DNA of 59,642 nt from Negaprion brevirostris (taxonomy: Eukaryota). A program made the position numbers. Each line of letters begins with the position of its first letter. The first letter of the stretch is position 1. This document shows positions 36,101-51,100 of the stretch, piece after piece. Location of the stretch: assembly GCA_030324005.1 (NCBI GenBank), contig JARDVH010000042.1, forward strand, positions 91,006,465 through 91,066,106. The letters run 5' to 3'.

Positions 36101-39100
36101 AATAGGCTGCAGAATTGCAAACAGCTCCATTCTCACACCGAATGGAACAGGATTTTGAGATGTTTCCCAGACTTTACGATACAGCTCGCGGTTCATCTGA
36201 CGAAAATCACAAGAGTATCTTTTTTTTGTCCTAATGCGTTGGTCAACCTCTACAAAGTCTTTCAAGAACAGCAATGGGAAAGCGAATGCAAAATCCTAAT
36301 TCAAAACGATAGTCAGACGCTTTTTCCCAACATCATTTAAATTCGGAATCAAAGGAATCTATCTGCAGATCCATTTTCAAAAATAAAGTAAAGCCCCTCA
36401 GCATGACAAGTGTTTAATGAATGCAGGTCGGTTACTAAATGCTAATACTGCAAAACCTGGGAGTGTTTGAGATAAATCGACCTGTTTAAATCTCCGTTTT
36501 TTGTTTATTAGACTACTCTCAGCCAGAGGGAAAGAAAGTTAAAACGGGAATGGATTAACACCTGCACAGAGGGGTAATCGGCGCCGCGAGGTACTTGGTC
36601 TCCTTCGATGCTACTTTTATTGGTTTTGGCGTGAAATTGACGTTTTGTAAGTGAGTCAAAAATGATGCATTACTTCCTTTTTTTTGCAGTGAATTGATAT
36701 CAGTAATTGGTATCTCATTTCAGTCTATGGAGCAGAAAATTGATAACTGAAAGGGTATTTGCCCTCCCCCCATACATGTCGTTAGATTTCATNNNNNNNN
36801 NNTAGCTTTCATCCTGGATCCGTTTAAATTCTTTTTCATTTCCAAGTATGATTTTGAGATTTTGGTACACTTAATTTTTAAAAAAGCCGCGATTGTTTAA
36901 TGCGACTGAGCACTGATAAGTATAGGTACAATTCAAAGCGGGAATGGGTAAATACGGAGTGGAATTATAAAAATGCACGACTTCGATAACAAGAACAGCT
37001 TTCTTTTTAAAAATCGATGATGTTTGTTTCGATCTGGAAGTTTGTACGAGCGCCTTCACTCCACATCACTATGTGGTAACAATCTTTAATCGATACATGT
37101 TTTTGAAGGAGGAAGAGAGACTCCAGCCTGATTTATACTCAGTAAACCTGTTCAACGAGGTGCGATTCTTAAAGTGTGTTTAGTCCCCACTACAATATGA
37201 TTAGTTCGAGTTGATAAAGCATCTGTTTACAAGCTGTAGGTATAATAACTCTTAACACACCGTGATAGGATGTGTCATTTCATATAACACCGACCAAATG
37301 GACAAGCCCCAGCCAACGCTGTCAAGCAAAACTCACGTGCTGGAGATTTNNNNNNNNNNNNNNNNNNNNNNNNNNNNNNNNNNNNNNNNNNNNNNNNNNN
37401 NNNNNNNNNNNNNNNNNNNNNNNNNNNNNNNNNNNNNNNNNNNNNNNNNNNNNNNNNNNNNNNNNNNNNNNNNNNNNNNNNNNNNNNNNNNNNNNNNNNN
37501 NNNNNNNNNNNNNNNNNNNNNNNNNNNNNNNNNNNNNNNNNNNNNNNNNNNNNNNNNNNNNNNNNNNNNNNNNNNNNNNNNNNNNNNNNNNNNNNNNNNN
37601 NNNNNNNNNNNNNNNNNNNNNNNNNNNNNNNNNNNNNNNNNNNNNNNNNNNNNNNNNNNNNNNNNNNNNNNNNNNNNNNNNNNNNNNNNNNNNNNNNNNN
37701 NNNNNNNNNNNNNNNNNNNNNNNNNNNNNNNNNNNNNNNNNNNNNNNNNNNNNNNNNNNNNNNNNNNNNNNNNNNNNNNNNNNNNNNNNNNNNNNGTCCG
37801 GGGGGTTGGGGGGGGGGTTGTGGGGGTGGGGAGGGGGGAAGAGAGAGGGAGGGGGGAAGACCCCTGGTCAGCTTCTGGATCCGGGTGCCCCAAGCACTCC
37901 TTACACGCTATCACTCACTAGGAACCGCCAGACAAGCCAGGGAAGGAGCTGCCTACTTACTATGCATTGCTGCAAACGGGTCGTGCTTACAGTGGATTTC
38001 CATGAAAAGGCGCAGCCGGTCTTCAACTCGGAGAAAACCTCGATTTCCTGGTCTGGATTTAACCCCTTCACCTATACTCCCAAAAAAAACAAGAGAGGGG
38101 TGAGCAGCACCCCACGCAAACCCAGAAGAAGATCTCGATGCCAGCCACTAATTGCAGCTCCTATGTCTTTGTGATCCACAAGGTTTCGGACGGATTGCAC
38201 AAGGAACGTAAAAGTTAAGTTTGACAAATGCAATGCATTGCCCCCCAAAAAAGATCCAATTGCTACCTAGTGACAGCAGGGGATTTTAACTTCGAAATCG
38301 TTCGAAACCAGAAAAAATCCTTTTATGAATTCCAGCTTCTTTTTTTGGCGTTTTCCTATGCAATTTGTCCGCTGTGTGTGTGTGAAGGCGGGTTCCCGTT
38401 TCCCCGGAGTGCGCTGGCCCCCTGCTCTGTATTCAGTCGCGCTCACTCTCCTCCATAGTGTTTAAATGTGGCTGAGCCCGCGGTGATTCGGCGCTGATTC
38501 GCCCGAGGCTCAGCCCTGCTGGGACGGCGCTCGGCCCCAGTCTCTGTCAATCACAGCACCGTCAGCCAATCGAGGAACAGTCTTCCTTCCTGCCGACCAA
38601 TCGCACAGAGCAGCCCAGCCTTTTGACCAATCTCCGAGCGAGCTGCTGACTTATTCACCAATGACACTCCTGTCTGAGAGAAATGGCCAATCGCAAGGTC
38701 TGCATTCACCAAAACATTCACCAATAAGCTGCAGCTTTTATAGAGAGCAGAGGTGGTCTCGCTGCTAATTGGCTATTTAATACAGCACCCTGATTGGCTC
38801 ATACTGCTAAATTCTCGAGGTGGGCCTCTTTATTAAAGGGAAGTCATTCACATGTTCAAAATGAATTTAATTTTTCATTTGAATAATTTTAAACAATAAT
38901 TTTCATCCACAGAAAATCCTTTGGTTTTTTGAATATATAAATAAATCCTTCACTTTTGCGCTAACTTAAAGGAGCTATATAACATCCTAGTGTCCGACTT
39001 TAGTGCAAATACTATTTTTAAATGCATTAACCACTGAATGATATCAGTTTGTTCGAAAGTGCATTACAATACAGCAAAATTAAGACATTGTTCGAATTTT

Positions 39101-48100: not shown

Positions 48101-51100
48101 TTAATCTGTCAGGGACTGAAGGGCACAGGAACCCACTCTTTGTTTCCAGTGATTCCACGTGAATTATGTGACGGATTTCAAATTAATACGCTGAAGAATA
48201 CTTGAGGCCAAATGCGGCCTGTTTTTTTTAACTAAACCTATTCGAGATCCTATTCGTTTTCTTGTTTCTTTCATTTTTAACACGCTGCCATTGAAAGGAA
48301 CAGCAAAGGGCCCTGGTTAAAGAGAGCGTGGTGAATGGAACCGGATTGCAGACGGCTCTGTGTTATTCTAAATAGCAGGAGAGGTAATGGGCAAAACCTG
48401 GATCCACAAAATACATTCTTTTGCCGAGTCGTGTAGTTATTAAGCGCTCTGCTTTTGGAAGCTGGGAGTTGCGTTTCATTGAATGACTTATTTCTTGCGA
48501 TGTGAACCATTACCCATAACCGGGTTTGATTTGTTATTTTATCAGAGCCGTGCGGAAGTGGTGGAGATCCTGAGTACAGAACTGGACACGTTAAACACAG
48601 GCCGGCGACCTGAACCATCACTGTCTGTCCAACTGGTATTGGCGAACAGGCTGCTGGGCAAACCTGTTGAATTAATTTCAGATAAGAAAATAGCAATGTC
48701 TTACAATCCCTAGAAAATCAGATGGCATTTCGCACGGCAAGACATCCCCGATATTCACCGTTCACCCTGTAACCATCGCCCACCCCCCCAATCACTGCTC
48801 TCAAAAGCAAGGTCTCAGTGTCTGGTTCCACCATGTTGGGTGAATCACGGCGATTGAGGTCCTACAGTTTGAGAAATGAGCAAAAATAGTGCTGTTTATA
48901 ATCAGCGGATACGCACGTATTGTGAAATGCAGGAAGGTATAAGACAACACGGAGCCACATTTCACACTGTAAAGCACAGGAGGAAGATACTTCTCAGTCC
49001 CTACACCATGTCAAGATACCAGAGATCAAAAAGAACTTTGAAACCGCTCCTTTCAAATCAGGGGTTCGCCACCTTTGCCTTCCTAATCTGAAATATGGGC
49101 AAAATCGAACAAAGTCGTGCGGATTCATTGGAAGGATTGCCTGAGTTTTGAGTTGACGTACTGAGTGCAGAAGAGTTAAGGAGCGTGTCTTGCCGCTGAA
49201 GGTTCAGTACGCGTGGCCATTATCACCGGCAAACCCAATCGGAGACATTTTATTTGCAGTTATAAAGTACATGCCCTCAGCCCTCGATTGAAATTCACTG
49301 GGTATTCACAAGTAAATGTGTAAAAAATTATTTTAATGTGATGAAATGCATTGTTCAATTATTTTTGTCAGAATTAGTCAAACAGCGGGTGTTCGAGAAT
49401 CGGGACAAAAATCCAAAAGAGATTTTAACTTCATTCCATTCGACTTTAGCGGCACCTGTCCCGCACTAAAAGACAGTAAAACAGTCAAAGGTTCAGAACA
49501 GCTGCTGCCGCAGATCCCCAAAGCCGATGTCGGTAGGGTCATTTTACTGTTTCGCTTTTCTTTACTTTTTGAAGTTTGAAATCAATGTTTATCAACAAAG
49601 TGAACGGTGTGGGTTAACTTATGTTTATTATTGAGGCCTCCGTACGCTCGTTTCACCTTTGGCGTTCATGTTAAAGCAGTTACTGGAGAGGGTTATTTGA
49701 AAACAGTTCGGGTGGTGGGAGAGGGGGAGATTTTCATCAACAAGTCAATCACAAACATTTTGTATTAATCTCCGAACCAGAAACCAAAATATGGAGTGCC
49801 CGGCATCGCCCACATCTGCAGCGCGTCTATCGAACCATCTAGACACTTAAAAACAAACGATATGCAAAAAGCAAAGCAAACACTTAGGTGACACCGAATC
49901 CAGCCACTGTACATATTTTAATTCTGCAAAACTGCAAACAAAAAAACCCTGGAAGCAATCCCGATCAACTCACACACACCCACAGGCAAGCAGGAGCGAT
50001 GATCAACCTCACCCCTTCGCACATGAAAGCAGAGGTTTGCGGCGAACTGTTTTTTTTTGTCACCCCCTCCCCCAGCTGCAGATCTCACTTCAACAGTTTC
50101 GCCTTGCGCAGATTGATGACAACCATCACTTTGTAAATATTAAGTGGAAACCAAACGACTTTGAACTTAAACATGAACTAAACGTGTGTTTTAAATTATT
50201 TAAACTGTTGAACCTCAGCAACGATCATTGATTATCTTATCGATCTTAAGTGATCGCTGGAGGGGGCTTTACTACAATCCGAATTTGCCGCAACGCGTGA
50301 AAAAGTTATCACGCTCAGTTCTGACGGGGAAACAACTCTAAAAATCAGCACCAAGATGTCTTCCCCTAACCTGCTCATTTCAGACAAACAGCACAAGTGC
50401 CCATATTCACGCCCGGAGATACATCTACCCTTTGTTTATGCTTAGCGTTTATTTTAAGTTTTCAAAGTTCACTAAATTCGCTTCAAATATTCCCCAGGAC
50501 TTGAACGCTCATTGAACCCCGCTTGATCATTTAAAATTCCTTTGTTTTTTAAAGCAAGTGTCTGAACATTTCCTATGCATTTTTATAGAATGAATGATGT
50601 TTCTGTACTGTTAAGTATGAGGCTGTCACCAATGCAGTCGCTTCATGCTTTCTAATTATTTATATATTTTTCTTCTTCACAGAAACGTTTTTAAACCTAC
50701 CTGATCGGACACTCCTGAGCGCGCTGCCGTTTTTTTCCATACTGGTTCTGGGATTTCGAGTCCTTTGTGAAGAGATTGGAAGAAAAGTTTCCCCCTTTTC
50801 GGTGTGTGTGCGTGTTTTGTCGGCTTCGAATAATTTGACTCTTCCGNNNNNNNNNNNNNTCTTTGGTGCTGCCCATTGATCCGAAACTAAACGTTTTAGG
50901 TGGAGAAAAGGCTCTGAACAAACCGTGAAATGATTAAGGAACTAAAAGAGCTCGCTACATGTGAGATCATGTCCTGTTCGCCTTTAGAGAGAGAGAAAAA
51001 AATCGCCAAGTCCCCCTGCAACACAGCGAAAAGAAAGTGAAACTCTTACAGCTGCCGGACTAACCACCCCCACCTATGAGTCTTGGTAACTTTGGCGTTA

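What the first reader, a model, noticed from the sequence alone, without database searches (positions are those of the whole stretch)
37961..50740. Both alternative first exons (1A and 1B) are present in a cartilaginous-fish Pax5
Seen: two ATG-initiated phase-1 exons about 12.7 kb apart, each with a strong donor and each in frame with exon 2. Neither reading frame appears in the ORF track. Established: mammalian Pax5 uses a B-cell-restricted distal exon 1A and a broader (CNS, testis, B cell) exon 1B. The 1B peptide is paralogous to the Pax2 N-terminus. Inference: the dual-promoter design dates to the origin of jawed-vertebrate B cells. The 1A peptide has diverged and is two residues shorter, while 1B is nearly invariant.
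Basis: partly seen in the sequence, partly recalled or inferred. Interest (0 to 1): 0.65.

Follow-up and report, generated by a model that had tools for sequence, protein, structure and literature searches.

The report
Shark Pax5 alternative first exons 1A/1B
The window holds the 5' half of a shark Pax5 gene with both of its alternative first coding exons, a real arrangement that public shark, ray and chimaera gene models already show.

Summary
On the minus strand, ATG 50740 to donor 50701|GT encodes MEKNGSALRSVRS plus one base. ATG 38003 to donor 37961|GT encodes MEIHCKHDPFAAMH plus one base. Both are phase 1 and fit the exon 2 acceptor at 35369.

Anatomy alone does not beat chance: 16 ATG/phase-1/donor candidates lie in the 24 kb upstream of exon 2. 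Homology decides it. The 1A peptide is 14/14 identical to the Cetorhinus maximus Pax-5 X2 model. 1A-type starts head 13 of the 33 chondrichthyan Pax-5 models seen, from 13 species including chimaera. 1B is 14/14 identical to duck.

1A-type starts also occur in teleost, frog and bird models. Both exons therefore predate crown gnathostomes, contrary to a published table that found 1A only in mammals (PMC6132355). B-cell-restricted use in sharks is untested.

Extras in the window:
- An in-frame acceptor upstream of the 1B ATG, used by 1A+1B catshark models.
- An internal donor inside 1B.
- A CCAAT-box cluster upstream of 1B.
- A 25-kb CpG-preserved block holding both exons.

Verdict: real, ordinary, already annotated.

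The parts
50701..50740 (-). Coding part of Pax5 exon 1A: ATG, 13 codons and 1 base (phase 1). The donor GT is at 50700-50699. The 5' UTR and TSS are unknown. A 13-base N run at 50847-50859 lies 107 bases upstream of the ATG.
   Evidence: The peptide with its split-codon G is 14/14 identical to Cetorhinus maximus Pax-5-like X2 (P0154) and 11-13/14 to the other elasmobranch models aligned.
37961..38003 (-). Coding part of Pax5 exon 1B: ATG, 14 codons and 1 base (phase 1). The donor GT is at 37960-37959.
   Evidence: tblastn against duck Pax-5 X2 (P0111) gives 14/14. The same peptide heads 10 of the 11 chondrichthyan 1B-type models; the chimaera model differs at 2 residues.
38004..38073 (-). In-frame 3' splice site upstream of the 1B ATG. 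AG is at 38073-38072 after a T-rich tract. GT and 22 open codons (EGVKSRPGNRGFLRVEDRLRLF) then run into the 1B ATG. This would let a 1A-started transcript include 1B as an internal coding exon.
   Evidence: The 22 residues are identical to the linker in Scyliorhinus canicula Pax-5 X2, X4 and X5 (P0136, P0148, P0139). Use in this species is inferred.
37989..37991 (-). Alternative donor inside exon 1B (ACT|GTAAGC). The exon would end at 37991 in phase 1, giving MEIHW before exon 2.
   Evidence: Sequence. MEIHW-HGGVNQ starts occur in Heterodontus francisci X3 and Mobula birostris X3, and at the end of S. canicula X2.
38566..38797 (.). Cluster of 8 CCAAT/ATTGG boxes spaced 25-47 bases apart (six of the seven gaps are 25-34), 560-790 bases upstream of the 1B ATG. 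A TATAAAAG lies at 38742-38735. Candidate proximal (1B) promoter.
   Evidence: There are 8 boxes in 300 bases against a window mean of 0.69 (Poisson 7e-7; about 1.4e-4 after correction for about 200 windows). It is not a tandem repeat. Promoter function is inferred.
35204..35369 (-). Pax5 exon 2, the first half of the paired domain and the common acceptor for both first exons.
   Evidence: Pfam PAX E=3.7e-31.
26954..27151 (-). Pax5 exon 3, the second half of the paired domain.
   Evidence: Pfam PAX E=1.9e-34.
24076..24140 (-). Pax5 exon 4.
19299..19430 (-). Pax5 exon 5. It contains the octapeptide region (name recalled).
   Evidence: 43/43 identical to the Carcharodon carcharias X1 and Chiloscyllium punctatum X2 Pax-5 models.
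29001..55000 (.). CpG-preserved block with CpG observed/expected of 0.43-0.95. It encloses exon 2, exon 1B, exon 1A and about 4 kb upstream of 1A. Flanking sequence is at 0.10-0.35, apart from one 1-kb bin at 0.65.
   Evidence: Reading it as a germline-unmethylated regulatory domain is inference.

Best explanation
The window is the 5' half (exons 1A, 1B and 2-5) of a shark Pax5 gene. Two alternative first coding exons lie 12.7 kb apart. Each carries its own ATG and a 13-14 codon peptide, ends in phase 1, and splices to the shared exon 2. The products are two proteins that differ only ahead of the paired domain.

The distal exon is the orthologue of tetrapod exon 1A. The proximal exon is the orthologue of exon 1B and is the Pax2-like one. 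Each is most likely driven by its own promoter, as in mammals and chicken, so the design sets where and when Pax5 is made rather than what the protein does.

Shown: the sequence anatomy, peptide identity to annotated Pax-5 isoforms, and homology to tetrapod 1A and 1B.

Inferred: actual splicing in this animal, separate promoters, and tissue specificity.
For: - Anatomy.
- Pax5 identity: PAX domain in exons 2 and 3. Exon 5 is 43/43 to shark Pax-5 models, and the listed hits are Pax-5 from chondrichthyans, coelacanth, frog and a mammal. Exons 3-5 match Pax5 better than Pax2-type proteins.
- N-termini of the 33 chondrichthyan Pax-5 models seen: 13 start with a 1A-type peptide joined directly to exon 2 (13 species, including Callorhinchus milii), 11 start with 1B, 3 carry 1A + linker + 1B, 2 start MEIHW, 1 is an upstream-extended 1B, 1 starts in the intron, and 2 lack the N-terminus. 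Eight species have both kinds.
- Shuffle test: the window 1A score against mouse, two frogs and one bird is reached by 0 of 2000 shuffles. Against horse and emu it is reached by 3 of 2000. Against three teleosts it is reached by 11, 24 and 48 of 2000.
- 1B promoter-like features: CCAAT cluster and a TATA-like box.
- Both exons sit in one CpG-preserved block.
- Mammalian and chicken precedent: PMC9456430 (passages), PMC6132355 (passages), PMC4301804 (passages).
- Nurse-shark B cells express Pax5: PMC10529500 (passages).
Against: - No transcript data were available, so no junction was seen.
- I could not see what evidence supports the RefSeq models.
- No promoter motif was found for 1A. The recalled EBF-type motif is not enriched: 13 matches against 13.3 expected.
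- Similarity of 1A to teleost peptides is weak (11-48 of 2000 shuffles reach it). Against non-elasmobranch references, 1A beats the best chance candidate only 30 to 23.
- The catshark models that join 1A to 1B show the two exons are not always mutually exclusive.
- A bamboo-shark single-cell study reports pax5 as B-cell specific only in the two bony fishes it studied (PMC11372145, passages).
Confidence: 0.85

Rival explanations
1. The distal exon is a real, conserved chondrichthyan first exon but is not orthologous to tetrapod exon 1A. On this reading, a distal first exon arose independently and the likeness of the short peptides is convergence or chance.
For: - The peptides are only 13-16 residues long.
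- Identity to tetrapod forms is 5-7 of 14.
- Teleost comparisons are weak: 11-48 of 2000 shuffles reach the score.
- Against non-elasmobranch references, the margin over the best chance candidate is small, 30 against 23.
Against: - The exon has the same position (distal to 1B), the same phase, and the same ending ...R-x-x-R-[ST/A]-G before HGGVNQ in chimaera, sharks, rays, teleosts, frogs, birds and mammals.
- 0 of 2000 shuffles reach the score against mouse, two frogs, one bird and chimaera.
- The 16-residue chimaera form bridges the two lengths.
Confidence: 0.08
2. There is one promoter, upstream of 1A, and 1B is only an internal cassette exon. Its ATG would be used only when 1A is skipped or the transcript is truncated.
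For: - The window keeps an AG acceptor and an open frame from 38071 into the 1B ATG.
- 3 of the 6 Scyliorhinus canicula isoforms seen read 1A + linker + 1B.
Against: - 11 of the 33 models start at the 1B ATG with no 1A.
- A significant CCAAT cluster with a TATA-like box lies upstream of that acceptor.
- Mammals and chicken have a separate 1B promoter.
- No linker-containing protein turned up among cluster representatives. This is weak evidence.
Confidence: 0.05
3. The distal candidate is a chance ATG followed by a GT.
For: 16 such candidates with a 7/9 or better donor occur in 24 kb.
Against: - 14/14 identity to an annotated Pax-5 N-terminus.
- Near-identity in 11 further elasmobranch species, and a 16-residue homologue (8/14) in chimaera.
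Confidence: 0.02

Closest known systems
Mammalian PAX5 distal (1A) and proximal (1B) promoters and first exons (PMC9456430, PMC6132355; passages read)
   Same: - Order on the chromosome: 1A distal, 1B proximal.
- Short ATG-bearing exons in phase 1 joined to a common exon 2.
- The 1B peptide differs from the mammalian one at 1 of 14 residues.
- The 1A peptide is alignable.
   Different: - The shark 1A peptide is 14 rather than 16 residues. Its Met aligns with residue 3.
- An in-frame acceptor into 1B and an internal 1B donor are present here. I know of no mammalian counterpart (recalled, not searched).
- Tissue use is untested here.
RefSeq Pax-5 isoform models of chondrichthyans (for example Cetorhinus maximus X1/X2, Chiloscyllium punctatum X2/X3, Amblyraja radiata X1/X2, Callorhinchus milii X1/X2)
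   Same: - The window's 1A peptide is identical to Cetorhinus X2.
- The window's 1B peptide is identical to 10 of the 11 1B-type models.
- Exon 5 is identical to Carcharodon X1 and Chiloscyllium X2.
   Different: Nothing substantive. These are the same gene in the same or sister species, so the finding is already in public annotation.
Chicken Pax5 exons 1A and 1B (PMC4301804, passages read)
   Same: Two first exons, with 1A treated as the B-cell-specific one.
   Different: In chicken both exons lie within about -3.3 to +2.8 kb of the 1A start site. Here they are 12.7 kb apart.
Pax2 N-terminus
   Same: The 1B peptide matches Pax2-type N-termini of catshark (P0114), teleost (P0073) and hagfish (P0018) at 11 of 14 positions (by inspection).
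   Different: Among the Pax2-type proteins seen here, none had a 1A-type start. This was a small sample and not a search.

Membership tests
Pax5 gene (Pax2/5/8 subfamily) | Paired domain encoded by exons 2 and 3 | tested here: met
   Pfam PF00292: E=3.7e-31 for exon 2 and E=1.9e-34 for exon 3.
Pax5 gene (Pax2/5/8 subfamily) | Exons 4-5 match Pax5 orthologues rather than Pax2 | tested here: met
   Exon 5 is 43/43 to the Carcharodon and Chiloscyllium Pax-5 models. Against Pax2-type P0114 it is 63% with gaps, and exon 4 is 61%.
Pax5 gene (Pax2/5/8 subfamily) | Partial homeodomain and C-terminal transactivation/inhibition region | not testable with these tools
   Exon 6 onward was not found in the window.
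Pax5 exon 1A (distal alternative first exon) | Lies upstream of 1B on the same strand, has its own ATG, ends in phase 1 and is compatible with exon 2 | tested here: met
Pax5 exon 1A (distal alternative first exon) | Peptide homologous to tetrapod 1A | tested here: met
   0 of 2000 shuffles reach the score against mouse, two frogs, one bird and chimaera. Horse and emu: 3 of 2000. Teleosts: 11-48 of 2000.
Pax5 exon 1A (distal alternative first exon) | Actually spliced to exon 2 in transcripts | not testable with these tools
   No transcript data. Only indirect support: 13 of the 33 models seen have this junction in the protein.
Pax5 exon 1A (distal alternative first exon) | Own promoter with B-lymphoid restricted activity | not testable with these tools
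   The CpG-preserved context is only suggestive. The EBF-type motif is not enriched.
Pax5 exon 1B (proximal alternative first exon) | Conserved Pax2-like N-terminal peptide, phase 1, joined to exon 2 | tested here: met
   14/14 to duck P0111. 11/14 to Pax2-type N-termini.
Pax5 exon 1B (proximal alternative first exon) | Own promoter | tested here: inconclusive
   Eight CCAAT boxes in 300 bases and a TATA-like box upstream. Motifs only; no start-site data.

The most novel reading that the evidence does not exclude
In sharks, exon 1B is more than an alternative first exon. It keeps a working in-frame 3' splice site 68 bases upstream of its ATG, and an internal 5' splice site after codon 4.

The locus would then make at least four N-termini:
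- 1A alone
- 1B alone
- 1A + 22-residue linker + 1B
- the 5-residue MEIHW form

This may preserve an older linear 1A-1B-2 gene structure, from which the two-promoter design of tetrapods was derived.

A further lead is recalled only and untested: the end of the 1A peptide resembles my memory of the short Pax8 N-terminus. If so, a 1A-type exon would predate the Pax5/Pax8 split, and hence B cells.
Probability: 0.3. Interest if true: 0.45.

Novelty: already known. Interest (0 to 1): 0.3.

Why it matters
The dual first-exon design of Pax5 is a textbook case of one protein placed under two regulatory regimes. Finding both exons in sharks, rays and chimaera places the design before the split of cartilaginous and bony vertebrates.

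That contradicts a published table. It reports 'no hits' for exon 1A in Xenopus, zebrafish, fugu and lamprey, and its text says PAX5A 'appears later, with mammals' (PMC6132355). The public gene models already hold the answer, so the value here is confirmation and a small correction to the literature, not discovery.

The testable open question is whether the distal promoter is B-lineage restricted in sharks.

Tried and rejected
Searches and scans that gave nothing:
- A recalled EBF-type palindrome (TCCCNNGGGA, up to 1 mismatch): 13 matches against 13.3 expected, and the only match upstream of 1A is about 3.5 kb away. It gives no support for a 1A promoter element.
- Protein search with the extended 1B reading (40 aa): 2 candidates, none scored. 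The search covers cluster representatives only, so this is weak evidence.
- A second cluster look-up listed the same 15 of 32 members. The other 17 members of the main shark cluster stayed unseen.
- Pfam on 8 of the 12 long ORFs listed: no family. The 4 left out overlap another ORF or an N run.
- Rfam on the whole window: no match.
- Tandem Repeats Finder did not call the CCAAT array a repeat.

Literature:
- Searches for shark, skate or fish Pax5 first exons found no paper on the point. One search found nothing at all.
- Two trout Pax5 papers (PMC3932526, PMC2637475) are not held.

Considered and dropped:
- Fetching unnamed representative proteins to obtain Pax8 N-termini.

Unavailable:
DNA-level conservation of the ATGs and donors therefore stayed unchecked.
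Full report
**Scope.** The window is not human, and nothing in it was taken for human. Its Pax5 exon 5 is identical to shark Pax-5 models. N runs were left as they are. Two lie next to the features: 50847-50859, 107 bases upstream of the 1A ATG, and 37350-37795, 166 bases downstream of the 1B donor.

**The observation.** On the minus strand:
- ATG 50740 opens 13 codons (MEKNGSALRSVRS) plus one base, ending at 50701 before GTAGGT.
- ATG 38003 opens 14 codons (MEIHCKHDPFAAMH) plus one base, ending at 37961 before GTAAGT.
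- Exon 2 begins at 35369 after a pyrimidine-rich tract and AG. Its first two bases complete the split codon (Gly for 1A, Arg for 1B), and HGGVNQLGG... follows.

**Is this more than chance?** Not by anatomy alone.
- The 24.3 kb upstream of exon 2 holds 16 ATG-to-phase-1-donor candidates with a donor matching at least 7 of 9 consensus positions.
- Two reach 8 of 9, and 1A is one of them.
- Scored against N-termini of non-elasmobranch Pax5/Pax2 proteins, the two claimed exons rank first and second of the 16. Their scores are 84 and 30, and the next best are 23 and 20.

**The gene.**
- Exons 2 and 3 encode the paired domain (Pfam PAX, E=3.7e-31 and 1.9e-34).
- tblastn with fetched Pax5 proteins places exon 3 at 27151-26954, exon 4 at 24140-24076 and exon 5 at 19430-19299. 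No exon 6 was found in the window.
- The exon 5 search gave 13 hits. The top two, Carcharodon carcharias Pax-5 X1 and Chiloscyllium punctatum Pax-5 X2, are 100% identical over 43 residues. The rest come from chimaera, rays, skate, coelacanth, a frog and a mammal.

**Existing annotation.** Cluster look-up and tabulation of N-termini covered 33 chondrichthyan models:

| N-terminus of the model | Models |
|---|---|
| 1A-type peptide joined directly to exon 2 | 13 |
| 1B peptide | 11 |
| 1A + 22-residue linker + 1B (all Scyliorhinus canicula) | 3 |
| MEIHW | 2 |
| 1B extended upstream | 1 |
| Starts in the intron just before exon 2 | 1 |
| No N-terminus | 2 |

- The 13 1A-type models come from 13 species: Chiloscyllium, two Scyliorhinus, Heterodontus, Stegostoma, Cetorhinus, Hypanus, Pristis, Mobula birostris, Hemitrygon, Narcine, Amblyraja and Callorhinchus.
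- The Cetorhinus maximus X2 start is identical to the window's 1A peptide, 14 of 14.
- Eight species show both a 1A-type and a 1B-type start.
- Seventeen of the 32 members of the main shark cluster were not displayed.
- I could not see what transcript evidence backs these models.

**Homology to tetrapod exon 1A.** Exon 2 is invariant, so searching with it returned full-length proteins from many vertebrates. I fetched only named ones.
- 1A-type starts occur in mammals, birds (Dromaius, Willisornis), frogs (Leptodactylus, Discoglossus) and teleosts (Etheostoma, Notothenia, Clarias).
- In global alignment, the window's Met aligns with residue 3 of the 16-residue forms. The chimaera form has Met at both positions.
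- The window's score is reached by 0 of 2000 shuffles against mouse, both frogs, Willisornis and chimaera. It is reached by 3 of 2000 against horse and emu, and by 11, 24 and 48 of 2000 against the three teleosts.
- 1B is 14/14 to duck (coelacanth and a teleost carry the same peptide) and 13/14 to a mammal. By inspection, it is 11/14 to Pax2-type N-termini of catshark, teleost and hagfish.

**Literature.**
- In mammals, 1A is reported as B-lineage restricted and 1B as also used in CNS and testis (PMC9456430, passages; PMC6132355, passages).
- Chicken uses both exons (PMC4301804, passages).
- PMC6132355, Table 1 and discussion, reports 'No hits found' for exon 1A in Xenopus, zebrafish, fugu and lamprey. 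It states that PAX5A 'appears later, with mammals'. The models retrieved here contradict that.
- Nine further searches found no paper on the first exons of shark or fish Pax5.
- Nurse-shark B-cell clusters express Pax5 (PMC10529500, passages). A bamboo-shark atlas calls pax5 B-cell specific only in the bony fishes it studied (PMC11372145, passages).

**Mechanism.** The most likely mechanism is alternative promoter use, giving two N-terminal isoforms that share exon 2 onward.
- For 1B there is motif evidence. Eight CCAAT/ATTGG boxes lie in 300 bases at 38566-38797, spaced 25-47 bases apart, with a TATAAAAG at 38742-38735 (Poisson 7e-7 for one window).
- For 1A I found no promoter motif.
- Both exons and exon 2 lie in one block, about 29-55 kb, where CpG observed/expected is 0.43-0.95. 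Outside it the value is 0.10-0.35, except for one 1-kb bin at 0.65. I read this as a germline-unmethylated regulatory domain; that is inference.

**Extras.**
- The frame upstream of the 1B ATG stays open for 48 codons, with no in-frame ATG.
- An AG at 38073-38072, behind a T-rich tract, would join 1A in frame to 22 codons that are identical to the linker of the three catshark models.
- Inside 1B, ACT|GTAAGC at 37991 gives the MEIHW form, which is annotated in two other species.

**Verdict.** The finding is real and correctly read. It is already present in public annotation, and the link to B cells is untested.

Noticed in passing
window 38004-38073 (-): An AG acceptor behind a T-rich tract, followed by 22 open codons running into the 1B ATG. 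The reading is identical to the linker of three Scyliorhinus canicula Pax-5 models that carry both the 1A and 1B peptides. In the Chiloscyllium GCC33206 model, similarity to the window's upstream reading begins only 3 codons before this acceptor.
   Followed up: partly
window 37989-37991 (-): An internal donor, ACT|GTAAGC, after codon 4 of exon 1B. It would give a 5-residue start, MEIHW, as annotated in Heterodontus francisci X3 and Mobula birostris X3.
   Followed up: partly
window 38566-38797 and 38735-38742: Eight CCAAT/ATTGG boxes spaced 25-47 bases apart (six of the seven gaps are 25-34), with a TATAAAAG among them, upstream of exon 1B. This is the densest such cluster in the window.
   Followed up: partly
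window about 29000-55000: A 25-kb block with little CpG depletion (observed/expected 0.43-0.95) around exon 2, 1B and 1A. The gene body and the far upstream flank are at 0.10-0.35, apart from one 1-kb bin at 0.65.
   Followed up: partly
window 50741-50746 (-): The two codons before the 1A ATG read Thr-Ser (ACC AGT). The elasmobranch start therefore corresponds to residue 3 of the 16-residue chimaera and tetrapod forms. The chimaera peptide has Met at both positions.
   Followed up: partly
window 35380-35382 (-): An ATG 11 bases upstream of exon 2, in frame (MLYTG). The Heptranchias perlo Pax-5 model starts with exactly this reading, so that model probably lacks its true first exon.
   Followed up: partly
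window 51033-51042 and 51521-51530 (-): Upstream of exon 1A there is an interferon-response-like element (the complement of tttcactttc) and a kappa-B-like decamer (ggggcattcc). The motif names are recalled, and no chance control was run.
   Followed up: no
window 43484-44025: Direct and inverted copies of a 33-65 base element in the 1A-1B interval, probably a short interspersed repeat.
   Followed up: no
P0020 (hagfish Pax2): One hagfish Pax2 isoform has seven extra residues between the 1B-like peptide and exon 2. This suggests an alternative splice site or a micro-exon at the same junction.
   Followed up: no
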